A stretch of DNA of 7,538 nucleotides from a virus (lineage: Duplodnaviria > Heunggongvirae > Uroviricota > Caudoviricetes), in IMG/VR virus record IMGVR_UViG_3300029157_000009, positions 1 through 7,538 of that record. One strand, written 5' to 3'. The notes below the pieces were generated by a model that ran no database searches, was not told the DNA's origin, and saw only the letters and a program-made list of their open reading frames with translations. Positions 1 to 7,442 of the stretch are shown one piece after another; the first letter of the stretch is position 1; each line of letters opens with the position of its first letter. The position numbers and the translations under genes were made by a program.

Positions 1-1129
1 TCTATATAGCAATTATTATTCGCATCCTTTTTCTCATAATTCAACAAATGCATTCGGATTTGTTGTATTAGCAATATACATAATAACCCTCTCAAGCAAG
101 AAAATAATTCCTGCCGCTTCCATTTTTATACTATTAGTACTTTCTGGAGCTTCTGATCCTTGGATATTACCATCTTTTACACTACCTATATTGATATCTG
201 AGGTTTACAATTCATTCATCAATAGAAAAAGTTACAAATACTTTATTTTTCTATTGCTTGCATTTTTAACATCTTATTTGAATCTAGTTCAACACCTTTT
301 TGATCTACCGACTGGCGGGTTCAAAATAACAACATTTGAGCAGATGATATCTAATGCACAGTATGCAATAGTATTAACAGCAAAAATGATGCCATTGTGG
401 GTAAACCCATCAGCATCTATGTCATATTTTATTGTTTTCATATGGGTGGCCGTGTTCATAGCAGCTGCTTTAGTTTGTTTTAATAGAGGTAAAGAATTAC
501 GTATCTTTTCTATTTGCTGCGTCCTTTCAGTTCTTGGAATTTACTCTTCATCTATAATTGGAGATCAATTTCCGCATCAACGTTTTTATGTAAATGTTGC
601 TCCCGTTGTTTTCTTGTTAACCTCTGTAGCCATAAGATTTTATAAAGCTTTCTTAATACCAATTTTCATAACTATTTGTGTTTCTGTTTATGGGTATTGT
701 AACTCACCATTAAAATATGAAGAAAATAAAAACCCAGTTTATGAATATATGACTTTCCTTTCCAACAATAATCTAAGTTATGGTTATGGTAGTTTTTGGT
801 ATTCTATGAATATGACAGTGAATTGGTTATCAAAAGACCAAATACATATAACACCTGTTTTCTTTAACCCTGAAACTGGTGTTGTGTATTTTCAGCCTGC
901 AAGAATACAAACACTGTCTTCATGGCATACAAAGGAATTCATAAGCGGTAAACCAAACAGACAGTTTATTGCCATAACTCAGGGACAAACCGGTGGTGAT
1001 ACATGTCCAAACGTTCAAATATGTATTGATGGTGCTCAGAAGCAATTAGGAAAAGCCGATGAAATCCTATCATATAAGAACACAACATTCTTGGTGTACA
1101 ACAAACCAATTGAAACAGATATAAAGTAA
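1..1129 (+). CDS. 5'-truncated multi-pass integral membrane protein with a ~150-aa C-terminal hydrophilic domain; candidate O-antigen-modifying (GtrC-like) lysogenic-conversion protein
   Basis: The listed ORF begins at a TTG at 191, but the same frame (codons from position 2) has no stop back to the window edge and encodes further hydrophobic segments (e.g. FGFVVLAIYIITL, IIPAASIFILLVLSGA), so the gene starts upstream of the window. At least six hydrophobic helices are followed by a hydrophilic tail (CNSPLKYEENKNPVYEY...KPIETDIK). The region is visibly AT-rich compared with the rest of the window. It is convergent on the tailspike gene, as gtrC is in P22. The functional family is inferred from position and topology only. 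Confidence 0.75.
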   Translation, partial: LYSNYYSHPFSHNSTNAFGFVVLAIYIITLSSKKIIPAASIFILLVLSGASDPWILPSFTLPILISEVYNSFINRKSYKYFIFLLLAFLTSYLNLVQHLFDLPTGGFKITTFEQMISNAQYAIVLTAKMMPLWVNPSASMSYFIVFIWVAVFIAAALVCFNRGKELRIFSICCVLSVLGIYSSSIIGDQFPHQRFYVNVAPVVFLLTSVAIRFYKAFLIPIFITICVSVYGYCNSPLKYEENKNPVYEYMTFLSNNNLSYGYGSFWYSMNMTVNWLSKDQIHITPVFFNPETGVVYFQPARIQTLSSWHTKEFISGKPNRQFIAITQGQTGGDTCPNVQICIDGAQKQLGKADEILSYKNTTFLVYNKPIETDIK

Positions 1130-1138
1130 TTTAATGCA

Positions 1139-1166
1139 AGAGAGGGATATTTCCCTCTCTTTTTTA
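1139..1166 (+). terminator. Rho-independent terminator between the convergent membrane-protein and tailspike genes
   Basis: Perfect 9-bp stem AGAGAGGGA (1139-1147) / TCCCTCTCT (1152-1160) with a 4-nt loop TATT, followed directly by a T-run (1161-1165). It lies 10 nt after the plus-strand stop (TAA 1127-1129) and just 3' of the tailspike stop (1167-1169 on minus), so it may also act in the other direction, though the minus-strand T-tract is weaker. Confidence 0.65.
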
Positions 1167-3290
1167 TTAATAATTCCCCTCAGAAAGGAAGCTGTAAACC
1201 CCGGGACCACCTGCAATATTACATGTCCACGCCTTTGGTTGTCCTGAAGCAGGTGCGCTATTGATAACGCGTTCGCCTATATCCCAGAAACCGGATGTAG
1301 GTACTGACGAAAGATAAAATGTTGTTTTTTCAACTTGTAACGCATTTGATGGCATTCCATATACACAAAGAGACGGTGAGTTTATGAGTACATTTCCTGA
1401 ACCATAATTTCTTATGCCAACATTTATAGCTGTAGCCGTTGCGTCTATATACACACCACAACTAACATAGCGCCATTTCCCATTACCAGCTAAAGGTGCT
1501 GTAGAGTCTGTTTGTCCTGCACCATTAACTATAAACATAAGTTTTGACGCTGCTCCCTGGTCATTTACCCACGCACCAAACCATACAAATTTCCCTTTTA
1601 GTTCTGGTGATTTGTTGAGGTCTATCGTTCGTCCCCAAACTCTATCTCCTGTCGTAACTAAGAATGAATAATTACCAGCATAGATGTTTTGAGTTTTTAT
1701 CAATGTTCCTGTGGTTCCAGATGTCGCGGTCCAGAGCAACATATTTCGATCAAGATAGTTAGCAGTTAACTCTCTGTTCGCAATATCTATTAAATGCGCA
1801 GTGTCAGGGTTTTGTGTCGCCGGGTCATAACTACCAACGTATCCTATGGAGTTCACTGTGTTGTTGGCAAGATATAGCCTGTCAGTAACTTTGGACGAAA
1901 GATTATTGTGGTACATTGCTAATAAATTATTCACTTTCGATACGTCTAATAACTGATTATTTTCAATCGTCAGGTTTTTCGCATAGTTCGTGAAAATAAA
2001 TCCGTCTTGGTTAGGTAGCGCGCTGGCGTAGCCAATCGCGGTCTGCTGATTCCCGCGAATAGATACGGTATCATTAATTTTTGAAAGGTCAGGAATTAAT
2101 GTAAAATTGTTCGCGATAAGGTGGATATCCGCACGTACTGTAATAGACTCAGGTACACTATACGGGTAACCAATCTCACCGTTGCGTTCCCAATAGTTAT
2201 CATCAAGGTTAAGGCCTTTAACCCCGTAAGCCAAAAGTCCGTAGAACTTATTTTGCTCTATATTGTTGCCATTAACTCTGACGCTCATACCGCCCTCAGC
2301 GTAAGCTGGCGTAAGTAAAACTCCACCGGCTCCGTTACCATAGATACGGCTGTTGATTATATTAATATTATTGCAGAAACCACCAACATTAATACCGTTA
2401 CCGGCGTTTTGAAACAACCGGCACCCAATGATGTCAATGGAGTAACCGTTAACTAATATTGCGTTGTTATTAGTATTAACCACGTCAATATTTTCTATTT
2501 TAATGTGGTTGGCTTCAGTAAGACTGATGCCGTTAGCTGCGTAGCCATTTCCGTCAAGACCAAAGTCCCTGAACTCGCAGAACGCAATTACCCCATCTTG
2601 TTGCGTGATTATCGGTGCCGCTGTACCCGTAGAGAAAATTCTGGACTGATATGCGCCAGCACCTCGTATCATGGTGACAGTATTCTTAATCGTAATACCA
2701 GGGTCAACAATGAACGCCCCCTCTGGTATAACAATCTCAGTTGGCAACGTAGCATCATCAATAGCCTTCTGAAATGCAGCTTTGTTCTGAGCACCGGTGT
2801 TTCCCTCAGCAAACCCGTAGTCTGTAAGCGTCCTCAGGTCGATAGTTAGCTTTTTTGAGAGAATGGTCGATGTGCTATCGACAAACTGTGGGTTATGCAT
2901 GACTAGAGAGTCGCCAAGTGAGTGATCTTCGCTCAGGAGATTGCCCTTAAACTGATCTGGATCATACTTTAGCACATTCGGAAAATAGAACTGCTGCGCA
3001 CCGTATGCATCATAAACAGCCATAGAATGGCCTTGCACAGTTACGAACTTGGCAATCTGTCCGTTATATACAGGGTAACCAGCAGCGTTAATGATGATTG
3101 GTTGCGAAACAGGAACGTGAGAGCCGTCTTCGTTTTCCACATAAACCTGAATCTGGTTTTCAGGATTTACCGGGTCCGTGTCAATTTTACCGATATAAAT
3201 TTTGCCATTAGTTACGGCTTTAAAAGAACGCGCCATAGTGAAGAGTTGCGAAGGCATGCTTACCACAACATTTGCGGTGATATCTGACAT
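1167..3290 (-). CDS. Tailspike protein: P22 gp9-type N-terminal head-binding domain fused to a divergent right-handed beta-helix receptor-binding domain (probable polysaccharide depolymerase)
   Basis: From the internal Met the protein begins [59 protein letters not shown]...[15 protein letters not shown]...NVLKYDPDQ, which closely matches the P22 tailspike N-terminus as I recall it ([59 protein letters not shown]...). I place the start at the ATG at 3290-3288 rather than the ORF-track start at 3338, because of this homology and a GGAG Shine-Dalgarno 7 nt upstream on the minus strand. The remaining ~590 residues are rich in N/G/I/V repeats typical of a parallel beta-helix (e.g. [71 protein letters not shown]) and do not resemble the P22 endorhamnosidase domain. 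Confidence 0.92.
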
Positions 3291-3411
3291 TTCATTGCTC
3301 CAGACGAATGATATGATGCAACCATGATGTGATTGCATACCGAAATGGTACTATTGAGTATTTATCCAGTAGGTTACGATGCCATTCCACCCAACTGGTG
3401 AGGCATCAAGG
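3291..3411. promoter_or_regulatory. Divergent intergenic control region between the tailspike and the mnt-like gene; candidate promoters and operator
   Basis: A 121-bp spacer separates two divergent start codons. It contains ATGAT direct repeats (3308-3317 and 3324-3328), an inverted repeat ATGCAA (3316-3321) / TTGCAT (3333-3338), and a short inverted repeat CACC-AACT-GGTG (3389-3400) just before the mnt-like Shine-Dalgarno. I could not assign -35/-10 hexamers with confidence. Confidence 0.35.
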
Positions 3412-3672
3412 ATGTACAGCAAATACGACGAGGCGCAGTTTCACTTGAGACTTCCGCATGAACTCCACGCGAAAATTAAGCAGCGTGCGAAGATGAATAA
3501 CAGGTCGCTGAACTCAGAGATAATTGCAGCGATTGAGGAATCATTGGATAAACAAAGCTCTGCATCAGTTTACATTGACGATGCAGAGCGTATGGCAGAA
3601 CAACAATCTGATATGGTTAAGAAAATTGTCTTTGATACGCTCAAGAAGCTATATAAAAAAGACAGCAGATAA
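3412..3672 (+). CDS. mnt: Mnt-like ribbon-helix-helix (Arc/MetJ family) transcriptional repressor
   Basis: The C-terminal half, DAERMAEQQSDMVKKIVFDTLKKLYKK, closely matches P22 Mnt (DAERLADEQSELVKKMVFDTLKDLYKK), and the N-terminal region, FHLRLPHELHAKIKQRAKMNNRSLNSEII, aligns with the Mnt RHH region (FNFRMPMEVREKLKFRAEANGRSMNSELL), both from memory. I start the gene at the ATG at 3412, which gives an Mnt-sized 86-aa product with a GGTGAGG Shine-Dalgarno (3397-3403), rather than at the ORF-track ATG at 3379. Confidence 0.85.
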   Translation: MYSKYDEAQFHLRLPHELHAKIKQRAKMNNRSLNSEIIAAIEESLDKQSSASVYIDDAERMAEQQSDMVKKIVFDTLKKLYKKDSR

Positions 3673-3692
3673 CCATCCGTTACGGAGGATTT

Positions 3693-3770
3693 ATGCACAG
3701 AGATATGCTGAATATTGCGTTCTACATATTTGGTTTTTGCACGTTCCTGGTGTTTGCAAAGCTATTCTGA
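3693..3770 (+). CDS. Hypothetical 25-aa hydrophobic peptide (MHRDMLNIAFYIFGFCTFLVFAKLF), single predicted transmembrane helix
   Basis: An ATG at 3693 is preceded by GGAGGA (3684-3689) and lies 20 nt after the mnt-like stop on the same strand. The product is a short charged head followed by about 20 hydrophobic residues. Its 3' end overlaps the last codons of the convergent 797-aa gene. It is too short to be supported by homology and the Shine-Dalgarno spacing is short. Confidence 0.25.
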   Translation: MHRDMLNIAFYIFGFCTFLVFAKLF

Positions 3771-6155
3771 CAACGCATCAGACTTAGCCCCCTGCGTCAG
3801 GGCGTTAATGGCCTTTTGCGCCTGCTGCATGGCTTTCTCAAACGCTGTTGATCCGCGTGGGGTGTTTGCCATTCGGAGCATTGCATTTCTGAATGGCTCG
3901 CTCTCATAGGCGCGAGTAAGAAGTCCGTAGCTTACCGCTGCGCCAGTTGTCGCCGGGTTCATTGCCGTCCCATACCCGATAATGAACGGGATAGTTTGCT
4001 GCCCCGTTGGTGTTGTTACTGCCGCTTTTGCTGCCTGCTGAGTGGATTGAAGGTAGTTTTTCAATCCTTTCAGATAAGCGGCTTCCTGACCTTTAAATGT
4101 GATGCCAGTCTGGTTTTGCAGGATGTTAAGCTGTCGAAGGAACTGGTCAGGGGATCCGCCAGATTTCTCCATCGCCTTTCCAATGATGCCATTGCGCATT
4201 TGCGCCCTGCCAACACGACCAACTGAGTTATACAGAGTCTTAATTTCCGATTTGTTCTTGCTGAATAGCATGTTGTTGACAACTTCCGGCGTCAGGTCGC
4301 CTTTCATGATAACATTCTTCAGCCTGGTATTCTTTAGTTTCGCCGCTTCGTCAGCGTAGACGGCATTGGCCTGCTGATATTTACGGAGAGTATCGTTGCC
4401 AAGATTCTGACCAATGGCACCATTGATATCGTCAGTCATTGCCTTGTAAACGCGCTGAATGGCAGCATCGGAACGGTTTGGTAACACTGGTCGCTCACCC
4501 TTCACGTCCATTCTGAACTGGCTGCGCAGGTCGCTTAATTGCTTCAAATCCAGATTTACCGGACCATCAGGACCAGCATTGCGAACAAGCTCATCACGAT
4601 AGGACTGAAGTTTTGAAATAGTCTCGTTATCGGCGACCTTACCAAGCTTCTGCAGATTAGATATTTCTGTATCAATCTGCTGAATTGCTCGCGCAGGCTG
4701 AATGTTTACTCCAGCCATAGCATTCTGAACCTGCTCCAGTCGATTACCGGCGGCACGACGAATTCCTGATGTTTTCGCTTTAAGGCTGTCAATAACAACC
4801 GCTGGATCATACTCACCGAATTTATCGGCAAATCTCTGCACCAACTGGCTTCTCGCTTCCTGTTGCGTTGCTCTCATTCCGCTTGTGCCAGCCAGAGGGA
4901 TATTTTCTGCTGTAGTCTGCGCCATTTTTCCGACGCGGGAAGTTGGTTGTAACAGGTCTGTGGTGTGAAGAGGAACTCCTTCACGCTCTGCAAATCTGAT
5001 AGCCTGCTGCGCTTCTGGCGAGATAGCGCCACGAACGCCACGATAAGCAGCACCTAATCCACGTCCGGCAGCGTTAATAGCACCGCCAGCAAGTACACCA
5101 ACGCCTAAATCGGTGGCGAGTGCTTCCGCATCATCTTTCGCACTATTTGCAGCAAGTGATCCAACTGCGTTTTCTGCTAGAAGGCGAGTTGCCCCCTGAG
5201 CAATTCGACCAGCAAGTGTTGGTGCCTGTGTTGCCGCTCTCTCAACGCCAGCAGGAGTGAGGTAAGGCAATGCTTCAGCAAATACCCTTCCCTCTGTCGT
5301 TTGTGGAGTCAGCGCGCCTTGCTGAAGGCCAAAGTCCTGCTCTAATCCCTGCGTTGTTACTCGTGGTGCTGGTTGATATGTACCATCGCCAATGCCGAGT
5401 TTACCGCCAGCCCAAGCCGCCGCGCTTGTTACAGCATCAGTGAGTTCAGCAGGTATGTTCGCTACGTTGATTCCTGCCTGTAGTAAGCCGCGCCCGGTTT
5501 CAGCAAGTCCATTACCAAGGTCAGACATTATTCCGCCTTGCTGCTGAACAGGTTTCGGTGCGACAGAACTTACGGGTTGAGGTGGCTGCTGACTGGCTGC
5601 CTGCTGCTCAATCTGAGCAAATGGATTATTTGGGTCTGACTGCACGCCTGATGCCGATACTTGTTCGGATGACTGTGCTTCCAGTTGTGCAAACGGGTTG
5701 TTAGGGTCTTGCTGAGGATGTACCTTTGCAGAGGTGGCGCGCTGTTCGACTGTTGAGTCTGTCACCGGGTCACCCGCCCATTGAGCAAAGCGATCATCAA
5801 CGTAACCGCGGCCTTCAGGTCCTGGCGTATATTCACCACGCTTTGCCTTCATAACGTTGCCGGGACCGTCGTGATAAGCCTGAAGAGCGTCACGCCAGTT
5901 ACCAAACTGCTGGTACATCTTTGCCAGATAGCGCGCGCCAGCGTCAGCCTGATATTCGGGGTTTTGCATTTGCTCATCGGTATAACCCATATCACGCCAT
6001 GTCCCAGGCATGACCTGAGTCAATCCTACAGCCCCGGCGGAGCTTACTGCGGCAGGGTTGTAAGAAGACTCCTTGGCACCCAGTGCAGTCATCAACCCTT
6101 CTGGCACACCGTAACGTGCGCCAGCCTGCTCTAACAAATCACGGTAATTAGCCAT
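3762..6155 (-). CDS. Virion ejection (DNA-transfer) protein in the P22 gene-16 position, with an N-terminal family-1 lytic transglycosylase (SLT) domain
   Basis: This is a 797-aa ORF. Its N-terminus carries the canonical SLT signature AKESSYNPAAVSSAGAVGLTQVMPGTW, with the catalytic Glu in the ES motif, followed by AYHDGPGN. The remainder is an Ala/Gly/Gln-rich extended region. The start ATG directly abuts the stop of the preceding gene (TAAATG at 6158-6153), suggesting translational coupling. Its position, just downstream of the gene-20-like protein and upstream of the tailspike, matches the ejection-protein block of P22-like phages. Confidence 0.9.
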   Translation of the reverse strand: MANYRDLLEQAGARYGVPEGLMTALGAKESSYNPAAVSSAGAVGLTQVMPGTWRDMGYTDEQMQNPEYQADAGARYLAKMYQQFGNWRDALQAYHDGPGNVMKAKRGEYTPGPEGRGYVDDRFAQWAGDPVTDSTVEQRATSAKVHPQQDPNNPFAQLEAQSSEQVSASGVQSDPNNPFAQIEQQAASQQPPQPVSSVAPKPVQQQGGIMSDLGNGLAETGRGLLQAGINVANIPAELTDAVTSAAAWAGGKLGIGDGTYQPAPRVTTQGLEQDFGLQQGALTPQTTEGRVFAEALPYLTPAGVERAATQAPTLAGRIAQGATRLLAENAVGSLAANSAKDDAEALATDLGVGVLAGGAINAAGRGLGAAYRGVRGAISPEAQQAIRFAEREGVPLHTTDLLQPTSRVGKMAQTTAENIPLAGTSGMRATQQEARSQLVQRFADKFGEYDPAVVIDSLKAKTSGIRRAAGNRLEQVQNAMAGVNIQPARAIQQIDTEISNLQKLGKVADNETISKLQSYRDELVRNAGPDGPVNLDLKQLSDLRSQFRMDVKGERPVLPNRSDAAIQRVYKAMTDDINGAIGQNLGNDTLRKYQQANAVYADEAAKLKNTRLKNVIMKGDLTPEVVNNMLFSKNKSEIKTLYNSVGRVGRAQMRNGIIGKAMEKSGGSPDQFLRQLNILQNQTGITFKGQEAAYLKGLKNYLQSTQQAAKAAVTTPTGQQTIPFIIGYGTAMNPATTGAAVSYGLLTRAYESEPFRNAMLRMANTPRGSTAFEKAMQQAQKAINALTQGAKSDALSE
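5589..5714 (-). repeat. In-frame tandem duplication of about 18 codons inside the SLT-domain ejection protein
   Basis: Protein residues ~148-165 (QQDPNNPFAQLEAQSSEQ) and ~172-189 (QSDPNNPFAQIEQQAASQ) are near-identical, and the matching DNA units are visible on the plus strand around 5620-5710 (caaatggattatttgggtctgactg / caaacgggttgttagggtcttgctg). The repeat lies just C-terminal to the SLT domain. Confidence 0.6.
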
Positions 6156-7442
6156 TTACTGCCCCAAAGATGGAAGATATCCGTAGCGATTAATGAAGTC
6201 GATTGACAGCTCGGGGTGCTGCTTCAGGTAATCTATAGAAGCCTGAGGCGCTTCCACTCGCTTGATACCGTTTTGCTGAACGTACTTACCAACCGCCTCA
6301 TTACGCTTCTGGTTGAGCGTGTTCAGGATGACGCCAGCGTTGCGACGAAAGGACTCCTCGCTCTGCGAGTTCTGCAGCGAACCAACAGCCTGGTCGAGCT
6401 TTTTGCCCTCGGCATCAGAAAGTGCGCCCATGCCTCGCATGGCCTGAACCGCTGTCAGGTATGCTTGTGATTTAAAGGTATCAAGTCGTGCCTGAGTGTC
6501 TGCAGCCTGTGAGCCTGGAACGTTGGGGATTACTCCACGTAAGCCTGTAATGCTCTTAAGTGAAGGAGAGCTAACGATATCGTTCAGAGTGAACATGCTG
6601 GTTGTGAGGGTGTTGATGCCGTCTTTGTAGCCATCATTTAGCGCTTGCTGCTTCTGCTGCAACTGCTGGTTGTTGGCTGCTATGCGGCTCTGTATTTCCT
6701 GGCGCTTCAGGTCGTTAGTTTCTGCTGATAGCATCCGGTCAAGGCGCTTATTTTCGTTGTTAATGCGGTTTGTTTCTGCGTCCAGATTAATGCGCTGCTG
6801 ACCTAAATTCGCCTGGATATCTTGTCCGCGCATTGTGATTGCCTGATTCCGAGCGGCGGTTTGCGAATCCAGATCCTGACCGCGCATGGTAACCTGGCGA
6901 CCCTGCATTTTATCCTGTAGGTCAAAGTATTTTTCGGGCCCGAGACTGTTCATCCCCAGGTGATCGACAAATTCGCCGAACTGCCGCGGATTCTGTTGGT
7001 ACATCTGAGCGACGTCATGAGGATTAACGCCAACACGAGCTAACTCACCGGCGTTGTTTTGCAGCCATGATTGCATTGCTTCTGGAGACGATGACGCAAG
7101 GCGTGCGCCAGCAGCTAAGGTGCCGATAGAATTACGCTGCTCTTCATCAATGAATCCCATGCCTTTACGAACGGATTCAATCTGGTCTGGATATTGAGTA
7201 GCCAACTGACGCAAAGCACCGCGATCACCAGACGCATAAGCATTAGCGTACGCCTGCTGAAATTCTTTCTGCCGCTGAGCCTGCTTTTCCTGCTGAAACA
7301 CCCCCGCAATACCAGAAAGACCTTGCAAAGCTGTCAGCCCAACATTGTTAGCGCCTGAACGCTCAATATCATTGTTCTGCCTGATAAGCTGAAGCGTGTT
7401 GCCGATGTCATTTACGGTGTGCCCGGAGTTCAGGGCGGGCAT
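6156..7442 (-). CDS. Virion ejection (DNA-transfer) protein in the P22 gene-20 position
   Basis: This is a 428-aa ORF, Gln-rich, with a weak internal duplication of the motif TMRGQD (residues ~185-190 and ~203-208; DNA ~6786-6893). Codon usage matches the neighbouring ejection gene. It is tightly packed and co-directional with the SLT-domain protein (stop/start TAAATG). The assignment rests on position and size; I cannot recall the P22 gp20 sequence well enough to claim direct homology. Confidence 0.8.

What the first reader, a model, noticed from the sequence alone, without database searches (positions are those of the whole stretch)
1..1129. AT-rich membrane-protein cargo gene convergent on the tailspike: candidate O-antigen modification (serotype conversion) determinant
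The base composition changes sharply at the terminator (1139-1166): the plus-strand gene to the left is far more AT-rich than the phage structural genes, which marks it as horizontally acquired cargo. It encodes a multi-pass membrane protein with a sizeable C-terminal soluble domain and is the last gene before a strong terminator. It occupies the slot where P22 carries gtrC, the serotype-specific glucosyltransferase at the end of gtrABC. GtrC-type proteins are highly diverse, so this could be an uncharacterised O-antigen-modifying specificity, possibly matched to the divergent tailspike receptor-binding domain. The gene is truncated by the window, so any gtrA/gtrB partners would lie upstream.
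Basis: partly seen in the sequence, partly recalled or inferred. Interest (0 to 1): 0.6.

Follow-up and report, generated by a model that had tools for sequence, protein, structure and literature searches.

The report
Prophage O-antigen glucosyltransferase gene, GtrI family
The AT-rich gene at the left end of the window is the last gene of a phage gtrABC serotype-conversion operon, an uncharacterised Escherichia relative of Shigella GtrI; this is an ordinary, well-understood kind of prophage cargo, and only its sugar-acceptor specificity is unknown.

Summary
Positions 2-1129 (+) are the last 375 codons of a gene cut off by the window edge. GC is 0.326, against 0.427 for the convergent tailspike and 0.52 for the injection genes. 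A strong hairpin terminator follows at 1138-1161.

A contig 99.7% identical to window 1-2892 shows the full 506-aa gene directly behind gtrA (PF04138) and gtrB (PF00535). An Escherichia genome shows argW tRNA-int-gtrA-gtrB-this gene-tailspike.

The protein is 39% identical over 490 residues (E 2e-106) to GtrI of Shigella phage SfI, which adds alpha-1,4-glucose to O-antigen GlcNAc. It has no detectable sequence similarity to P22 GtrC, which shares only the genomic slot.

The gene and the tailspike receptor-binding domain travel together, including into a long-tailed prophage.

Every database copy I saw for its 90%-identity cluster is named 'hypothetical protein', and no Pfam or NCBIfam model covers it. 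The acceptor sugar and linkage are unknown.

Verdict: a new member of a known kind, of modest interest.

The parts
1..1129 (+). The 3' 1,128 nt (codons 132-506 plus the TAA stop) of the serotype-specific glucosyltransferase gene gtr(type), of the GtrI family. The 5' 131 codons and gtrA/gtrB lie beyond the window edge.
   Evidence: The frame is open from nt 2. The 375 aa are identical to the C-terminus of the 506-aa E. coli protein P0039. Identity to SfI GtrI is 39%. The fold is GT-C. GC is 0.326.
2..703 (+). Membrane-embedded part present in the window (residues 132 to about 365, roughly nine helices).
   Evidence: Hydropathy peaks and the helices of the AlphaFold model.
23..49 (+). Invariant family motif HPFSHNSTN (residues 139-147).
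   Evidence: Invariant in 35 aligned homologues. It was also used as the search pattern that recovered the family.
152..163 (+). Conserved SDPW motif (residues 182-185). D183, P184 and W185 are invariant. D183 is a candidate second acidic active-site residue.
   Evidence: Alignment A1. The catalytic role is inferred, not tested.
704..1126 (+). C-terminal alpha/beta soluble domain (residues about 366-506). It is predicted to be periplasmic and is a candidate acceptor-recognition domain.
   Evidence: Model secondary structure. [quoted passage not shown]
1138..1167 (+). Intrinsic terminator closing the gtr operon: a 10-bp stem, a 4-nt loop and a T run. It lies between the two convergent genes.
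   Evidence: P22 has an annotated gtrC terminator in the same position.
1167..2900 (-). Tailspike receptor-binding (beta-helix) part, co-inherited with the gtr(type) gene as one cassette.
   Evidence: RBD identities of 99%, 88%, 88% and 80% are found exactly in the loci whose Gtr(type) is at least 88% identical, including a non-P22-like prophage. No solved structure shows sequence similarity to the RBD.
2901..3290 (-). P22-type head-binding domain of the tailspike. The likely true start is MSDITANVV at 3290, not the upstream ATG at 3338.
   Evidence: Pfam PF09008 matches residues 17-129 of the long ORF. PDB hits are to Sf6 gp14 and P22 gp9 N-terminal domains.

Best explanation
The gene is the third, specificity-determining gene of a prophage gtrABC O-antigen glucosylation operon carried by a P22-like (Lederbergvirus) prophage of Escherichia.

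The proposed mechanism is inferred from the Shigella/Salmonella paradigm and was not assayed here. GtrB makes undecaprenyl-phosphate-glucose on the cytoplasmic face of the inner membrane, and GtrA flips it to the periplasm. This 506-aa GT-C-fold membrane enzyme then transfers the glucose to one defined position of the O-antigen repeat unit in the periplasm. The expected result is a change in the lysogen's serotype and an altered receptor for the phage's own O-antigen-specific tailspike.

Invariant acidic residues in the first periplasmic loop (D38, D65; outside the window) and D183 (inside the window) are the likely donor/catalytic site. The C-terminal soluble domain is the likely acceptor-recognition module. 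The acceptor sugar and the linkage are unknown.
For: Shown directly:
- The full-length gene lies immediately after gtrA (PF04138) and gtrB (PF00535) in a contig 99.7% identical to the window. The same holds in L016 and L038 (98-99% protein identity) and in most other family loci examined.
- Identity to SfI GtrI is 39% over 490 residues, E 2e-106, with the same length of 506 aa.
- The associated GtrB is 90% identical to SfI GtrB, which argues for glucose as the donor sugar.
- dN/dS is 0.05-0.08 against three diverged copies.
- The GC gradient gtrA 0.46 > gtrB 0.40 > gtr(type) 0.32 matches SfI (0.43/0.42/0.33) and P22 (0.46/0.42/0.32).
- The position is prophage-end, next to int and argW.

From the literature: GtrI adds alpha-1,4-glucose to GlcNAc of the S. 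flexneri O unit (PMC3636060). The three-component model with a GT-C enzyme is described in PMC11127046 and PMC7685785.
Against: No enzymatic or serological data exist for this protein. Every named member I read in its 90%-identity cluster is called 'hypothetical protein'. The N-terminal 131 codons, the putative catalytic loop, gtrA, gtrB and the promoter are not in the window, so intactness of the operon in this particular genome is inferred from near-identical loci. At 39% identity to GtrI, the acceptor and linkage cannot be transferred. In Salmonella, some GtrC families gave no visible LPS modification (PMC3688519), so gtr context alone does not guarantee O-antigen glucosylation. Nine distant family members have no gtrA/gtrB within 8 kb.
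Confidence: 0.85

Rival explanations
1. The gene belongs to the GtrI family but is inactive in this genome. It could be a decaying remnant, for example with a disrupted 5' part or deleted gtrA/gtrB beyond the window edge.
For: Decay of exactly this operon is documented. Phage N7 and the E. coli FDN-24/FDN-9 prophages carry an identical 2,072-bp deletion fusing gtrA codon ~20 to codon ~285 of this gene. The window itself cannot show the 5' end.
Against: The window extends 460 nt upstream of that deletion junction without interruption. All 375 codons are open and identical to the intact 506-aa P0039, which is seen on 110 contigs. dN/dS is 0.05-0.08. The 99.7%-identical contig L003 has the complete operon.
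Confidence: 0.06
2. The enzyme is a functional GT-C transferase with a different job from O-antigen glucosylation. It might use another lipid-linked sugar, or another acceptor such as enterobacterial common antigen, capsule or LPS core.
For: GT-C enzymes use many donors and acceptors (one search hits; galactose and pentofuranose three-component systems, PMC11127046). Some Salmonella GtrC families gave no visible O-antigen shift. Nine family members in Pantoea, Erwinia, Rahnella and related genera lack linked gtrAB.
Against: The linked GtrB is 88-96% identical to GtrB proteins of Shigella/Escherichia gtr operons, including SfI at 90%. The closest characterised homologue, GtrI, glucosylates O-antigen. 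The gene is co-inherited with an O-antigen-type tailspike domain.
Confidence: 0.07
3. The gene encodes an unrelated membrane protein, such as a transporter, an O-antigen acetyltransferase (as in the same slot of phage Sf6), or an O-antigen polymerase or ligase.
For: There is no Pfam or NCBIfam hit. The PHROGs hits are weak and are to families of unknown function. The same genomic slot holds other O-antigen modifiers in other phages; this last point is from general knowledge.
Confidence: 0.02

Closest known systems
GtrI of Shigella flexneri phage SfI (type I antigen glucosyltransferase; NC_027339 gp25)
   Same: The two proteins are homologous along the whole length: 39% identity, 57% positives, E 2e-106. 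Both are 506 aa. Both are the third gene after gtrA-gtrB, near int/attP and convergent with tail genes. Both genes have low GC: 0.334 for gtrI and 0.322-0.326 for this gene.
   Different: Sequence identity is only 39%, so the acceptor and linkage may differ. SfI is a contractile-tailed phage integrated elsewhere (its att-site primers target proA and yaiC). This gene is in a P22-like podovirus, and the 99%-identical copy in L016 sits next to the argW tRNA. GtrI has been shown to confer serotype 1, whereas this protein is uncharacterised.
GtrC of Salmonella phage P22 (Pfam PF14264, Glucos_trans_II)
   Same: The genomic slot and operon logic are identical: tailspike - terminator - gtrC-gtrB-gtrA - attP - int. 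The GC gradient is the same. The presumed role as the serotype-specific transferase is the same.
   Different: There is no detectable sequence relationship (BLASTP E 0.4, hhalign probability 2%). P22 GtrC matches PF14264 and this protein does not. The two are positional and functional analogues, not family members.
GT-C fold glycosyltransferases with solved structures (ArnT 5f15, PglB 5ogl, STT3B, Pmt1/2, ALG12, AftB)
   Different: Sequence identity is 8-12%, and a profile search of PDB sequences finds nothing. The acceptors differ (lipid A, proteins, arabinan). No solved structure exists for any Gtr(type) enzyme among the hits.
Escherichia phage N7 ORF21 and the E. coli FDN-24/FDN-9 prophage remnant
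   Same: DNA is 99% identical from window position 461 through the terminator into the tailspike 3' end.
   Different: These are deleted, non-functional copies: gtrA codon ~20 is fused to codon ~285. Their tailspike receptor-binding domain is only 59% identical.

Membership tests
gtrABC three-component O-antigen glucosylation operon | The specificity gene lies immediately downstream of gtrA (GtrA/DPMS TM, PF04138) and gtrB (GT2 polyprenyl-phosphate glucosyltransferase, PF00535). | tested here: met
   This is not visible in the window, which starts at codon 132. It is shown in L003, which is 99.7% identical to window 1-2892, and in L016 and L038 (98-99% protein identity). It also holds in 51 of 62 testable family loci.
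gtrABC three-component O-antigen glucosylation operon | The specificity protein is a polytopic inner-membrane GT-C fold enzyme with extracytoplasmic domains. | tested here: met
gtrABC three-component O-antigen glucosylation operon | The operon is carried at a prophage end next to integrase/att, with markedly lower GC in the specificity gene than in gtrA/gtrB. | tested here: met
   L016 shows tRNA-Arg(CCT) - int - gtrA - gtrB - gene - tailspike. GC values are 0.46/0.40/0.32, as in SfI and P22.
gtrABC three-component O-antigen glucosylation operon | Expression adds a glucosyl side branch to the O unit and changes the serotype. | not testable with these tools
   This requires LPS gels, NMR or serology of lysogen versus cured strain.
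GtrI family (homologues of S. flexneri type I glucosyltransferase) | Significant full-length sequence homology to GtrI. | tested here: met
   BLASTP gives 39% identity over 490 aa, E 2e-106, and tblastn gives 8e-89. The GtrI cluster P0025 is the top hit of the family profile search, at 1.2e-211.
GtrI family (homologues of S. flexneri type I glucosyltransferase) | Shared conserved motifs: D38, PTxDNWY, HPFSHNSTN, SDPW. | tested here: met
   These are invariant across the 35 aligned homologues and are visibly conserved in the pairwise alignment with SfI GtrI. HPFSHNSTN and SDPW lie in the window at nt 23-49 and 152-163.
GtrI family (homologues of S. flexneri type I glucosyltransferase) | Same acceptor and linkage as GtrI (alpha-1,4-Glc on GlcNAc). 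| not testable with these tools
   39% identity does not allow specificity to be transferred. The host O-type is unknown.
P22 GtrC / Pfam PF14264 Glucos_trans_II | Sequence match to the family profile or to P22 GtrC. | tested here: not met
   There is no Pfam hit for the protein, whereas P22 GtrC hits PF14264 at 1.3e-33. BLASTP gives E 0.4 and hhalign gives probability 2%.
GT-C glycosyltransferase superfamily | A conserved acidic residue in the first extracytoplasmic loop directly after TM1. | tested here: inconclusive
   Invariant D38 lies three residues after model helix 4-35, and invariant D65 lies in the same loop. No residue-level superposition on the catalytic Asp of ArnT or PglB could be made, and both residues lie outside the window.

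The most novel reading that the evidence does not exclude
This GtrI-family enzyme specifies a so far unassigned glucose side branch on an Escherichia O antigen. It forms a mobile two-part cassette with the convergent tailspike receptor-binding domain, so that 'modify the receptor' and 'recognise the receptor' functions for one O antigen are exchanged together between unrelated phage types (a P22-like podovirus and a long-tailed prophage).
Probability: 0.4. Interest if true: 0.4.

Novelty: new member of a known kind. Interest (0 to 1): 0.27.

Why it matters
Phage gtr operons create O-serotype diversity. They affect immune recognition and phage susceptibility in Shigella, Salmonella and E. coli. 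A review of E. coli O antigens (PMC7685785) notes that about half of the O units with a glucose side branch have no matching transferase in the O-antigen cluster and are attributed to gtr genes elsewhere. Assigning uncharacterised Gtr(type) families such as this one to particular side branches would therefore improve in-silico serotyping. The family has no Pfam or NCBIfam model, and every copy I saw in this protein's own cluster is annotated as hypothetical, so it is currently invisible to annotation pipelines. The linkage with the tailspike domain is a small but useful example of modular exchange of receptor-related functions. None of this changes the established mechanism.

Tried and rejected
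- Pfam and NCBIfam scans of the protein gave no family. PHROGs gave only two weak hits to families of unknown function.
- A profile search of PDB sequences gave nothing meaningful; only the fold comparison was informative.
- I looked for homology to P22 GtrC and rejected it.
- The Foldseek search of viral structures returned only the phage N7 remnant and weak hits. The afdb50 library was unavailable.
- A literature search by accession numbers and phage N7 names found nothing.
- None of the 5,426 complete E. coli RefSeq genomes carries window 1-460 at megablast sensitivity; only two carry the deleted version.
- The tailspike receptor-binding domain has no sequence relative with a solved structure. 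Among deposited phages its only full-length relative is N7, at 58%. The target O antigen could therefore not be inferred.
- The transporter, acetyltransferase and Wzy/ligase readings were rejected on fold and homology.
- I looked for a P22-type Dam/OxyR phase-variation signature upstream of gtrA in L016 and did not find one.

Full report
**Observation**

The + strand is open from nt 2 to a TAA stop at 1127-1129. That gives 375 codons with the start lying beyond the window edge. GC is 0.326 (GC3 0.25). The convergent tailspike has 0.427, the mnt-like gene 0.425, and the two injection-protein genes 0.52 and 0.516. The differences are highly significant: p = 2e-8 against the tailspike and p = 1e-29 against the injection genes.

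There are really two composition steps, one at the terminator and one near 3700. The tailspike is intermediate between the gene and the rest of the phage.

A 10-bp hairpin at 1138-1161 followed by a T run folds at -18.4 kcal/mol, with z = -5.6 and none of 200 shuffles folding as well. Hydropathy analysis and the structure model show a multi-pass membrane region followed by a C-terminal alpha/beta domain of about 140 residues.

**Context of the window**

The rest of the window is the late-operon end of a P22-like (Lederbergvirus) prophage.
- The tailspike has a P22 head-binding domain (PF09008) and a beta-helix.
- An Mnt-type repressor gene follows.
- Next comes a gp16-position injection protein with an SLT lytic transglycosylase domain, and then a gp20-type injectosome protein, PF16928.

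The nearest deposited phages for this part are IME10, Sf101 and Sf6. The P22 record shows the same order: gene 9 - terminator - gtrC - gtrB - gtrA - promoter - attP - int. The gene therefore sits exactly in the P22 gtrC slot.

**What lies upstream**

Window 1-2892 is 99.7% identical to a 4.8-kb contig, L003 (GCA_902828135.1). In that contig the gene is complete at 506 aa (P0001). It directly follows gtrA (120 aa, PF04138) and gtrB (306 aa, PF00535), with overlapping or abutting stop and start codons.

The window's 375 residues are identical to the C-terminus of P0039, a 506-aa E. coli protein seen on 110 contigs.

In Escherichia sp. E1V33 (L016, protein 99% identical) the order is mlaA - formate/nitrite-transporter-family gene - tRNA-Arg(CCT) - integrase - gtrA - gtrB - this gene - tailspike. 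This places the operon at the prophage end, next to the integrase and the argW tRNA.

Across 62 family loci with enough upstream sequence, 51 have gtrB immediately upstream and 2 more have it within 1.8 kb. In most of these, gtrA lies just before gtrB. The remaining 9 have neither gene within 8 kb. They are chromosomal loci in Pantoea, Erwinia, Rahnella, Acerihabitans and Kalamiella plus one Acidobacteriota MAG, at 32-35% identity. Many of the positive loci are near-duplicates, so these counts are not independent.

**Homology**

Among 50,697 phage records, the only full-length relative is gtrI of Shigella phage SfI. Identity is 39% and positives 57% over 490 residues, E 2e-106, and both proteins are 506 aa. 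The 90%-identity cluster containing P0025 includes entries named gtrI from S. flexneri. That cluster is also the best hit of the family profile in a library of 1.84 billion representatives. The family there comprises 664 clusters at E <= 1e-3 and 165 at E <= 1e-30.

According to PMC3636060, the type I modification is an alpha-1,4 glucosyl group on the GlcNAc of the O unit, mediated by gtrI, gtrA and gtrB.

P22 GtrC, by contrast, shows no similarity: BLASTP E 0.4 and hhalign probability 2%. It belongs to Pfam PF14264, which this protein does not match. No Pfam or NCBIfam model covers the GtrI family. Every named member I read in the window protein's own cluster is called 'hypothetical protein'.

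**Fold and conserved sites**

- ALG9, AglB, Pmt4 and others

All of these use polyprenyl-phosphate or polyprenyl-diphosphate-linked sugars on the extracytoplasmic side.

Invariant residues in the family include D38, N41-S42 and P62-T63-x-D65-x-W67-Y68 in the loop after TM1. Further invariant stretches are H139-PFSHNSTN-147, D183-P-W185, R325-F326 and several positions in the C-terminal domain. The first-loop acidic residues are where GT-C enzymes place their catalytic Asp/Glu; this is general knowledge and no residue-level superposition was made. Those residues lie outside the window. HPFSHNSTN (nt 23-49) and SDPW (nt 152-163) lie inside it.

**Is it functional?**

dN/dS for the window portion is 0.08 against L005 (88% aa identity), 0.054 against L016 and 0.077 against L038. 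This indicates strong purifying selection.

A decayed version also exists. Phage N7 and the E. coli FDN-24/FDN-9 prophages share an identical 2,072-bp deletion joining gtrA codon ~20 to codon ~285 of this gene. The window extends 460 nt beyond that junction without interruption, so it is not that allele.

**Mechanism**

Shown here: the operon structure in near-identical loci, homology to GtrI, and the GT-C fold.

Inferred from the established model (PMC7685785, PMC11127046):
- GtrB forms Und-P-Glc.
- GtrA flips it to the periplasm.
- This enzyme transfers glucose to a specific O-unit position in the periplasm.

Glucose is the likely sugar because the linked GtrB is 88-96% identical to Shigella/Escherichia GtrB proteins, including 90% to SfI GtrB. 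The acceptor and linkage are unknown.

**Link to the tailspike**

The receptor-binding part of the tailspike (residues 131-723) is 99%, 88%, 88% and 80% identical in exactly those loci whose Gtr(type) is at least 88% identical: L003, L016, L038 and L004/L005. It is not found next to more distant family members.

L004/L005 carry P0002, which one source names as a Citrobacter sedlakii protein. Those loci belong to a long-tailed prophage with a tape-measure protein, an NlpC/P60 protein and a different tailspike N-terminus (PF18668). The gtr operon plus the receptor-binding domain therefore moved as one block of about 2.85 kb at 78.6% nt identity.

In N7 and FDN-24, where gtr is deleted, the receptor-binding domain is only 59% identical. 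This is genetic linkage consistent with both functions addressing the same O antigen. It does not prove functional matching.

**Comparison with the known, and novelty**

The gene works like, and belongs to, the Gtr three-component system. Within that system it belongs to the GtrI family, not the P22 GtrC/GtrII family. The same compositional gradient is found in SfI and P22, so the AT-richness is a family trait and not a special feature of this locus.

The gene is a new, uncharacterised member of a well-known kind. A specialist would not be surprised by it. The open points are its acceptor specificity and which Escherichia O type it modifies.

**Limits**

- The window lacks the 5' third of the gene and the rest of the operon.
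- No experiment is available.

Noticed in passing
L001 5943-6669; L002 about 5990-6669 (equivalent to window 461 onward): Phage N7 and the E. coli FDN-24/FDN-9 prophages carry an identical 2,072-bp deletion (L003 coordinates 113-2184). It fuses gtrA codon ~20 to codon ~285 of the gtr(type) gene, leaving a dead remnant annotated as 'GtrA family protein (partial)' plus a hypothetical protein.
   Followed up: yes
window 3339-3761: The immunity-I region is minimal. Only an Mnt-like ribbon-helix-helix gene (3379-3672, +; Pfam Arc plus Repressor_Mnt) lies between the tailspike and the gp16-position gene. There is no arc, ant or sieA, unlike P22 and phage N7.
   Followed up: partly
window 3762-6155 (-): The injection protein at the P22 gp16 position is 797 aa and begins with an SLT lytic transglycosylase domain (PF01464, E 2.8e-25). 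The downstream 428-aa protein (6156-7442) is a P22 gp20-type injectosome translocase (PF16928).
   Followed up: partly
window 3290-3338 (-): The mechanical ORF for the tailspike starts at the ATG at 3338. The Pfam head-binding domain and the P22/Sf6 homologues begin at residue 17 (MSDITANVV), so the real start is probably 3290.
   Followed up: partly
L004 7081-11733; L005 1879-6890: The gtrABC operon plus the tailspike receptor-binding domain is shared at 78.6% nt identity with a long-tailed prophage (tape measure, NlpC/P60, Tail_spike_N PF18668). That prophage carries P0002, which one source names as Citrobacter sedlakii. This suggests cassette exchange between phage morphotypes.
   Followed up: partly
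L017, L021, L025, L028, L029, L031-L034: Nine distant family members (32-35% identity) have no gtrA or gtrB within 8 kb. They come from Pantoea, Erwinia, Rahnella, Acerihabitans and Kalamiella plus an Acidobacteriota MAG. They may rely on unlinked genes or on another lipid-linked donor.
   Followed up: no
P0034 (Logan contig, 1,352 nt): This 349-aa predicted protein joins the first 236 residues of this Gtr(type) protein in frame to the C-terminal ~50 residues of the gp16-position injection protein. That protein is on the opposite strand in the window. The fusion is either a rearranged prophage or an assembly chimera.
   Followed up: partly
L016 6570-6721: The region upstream of gtrA in the near-identical Escherichia sp. 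E1V33 prophage has only one GATC between int and gtrA. It lacks the four-GATC/OxyR arrangement seen upstream of P22 gtrA, so Dam/OxyR phase variation may not apply here.
   Followed up: partly
L016 9562-11340 versus 8001-9518: Between the window and L016, the Gtr(type) protein is 99% identical (dS 0.064) while the adjacent tailspike receptor-binding domain is only 88% identical. The tailspike therefore diverges much faster than the modification enzyme, or it has recombined.
   Followed up: no
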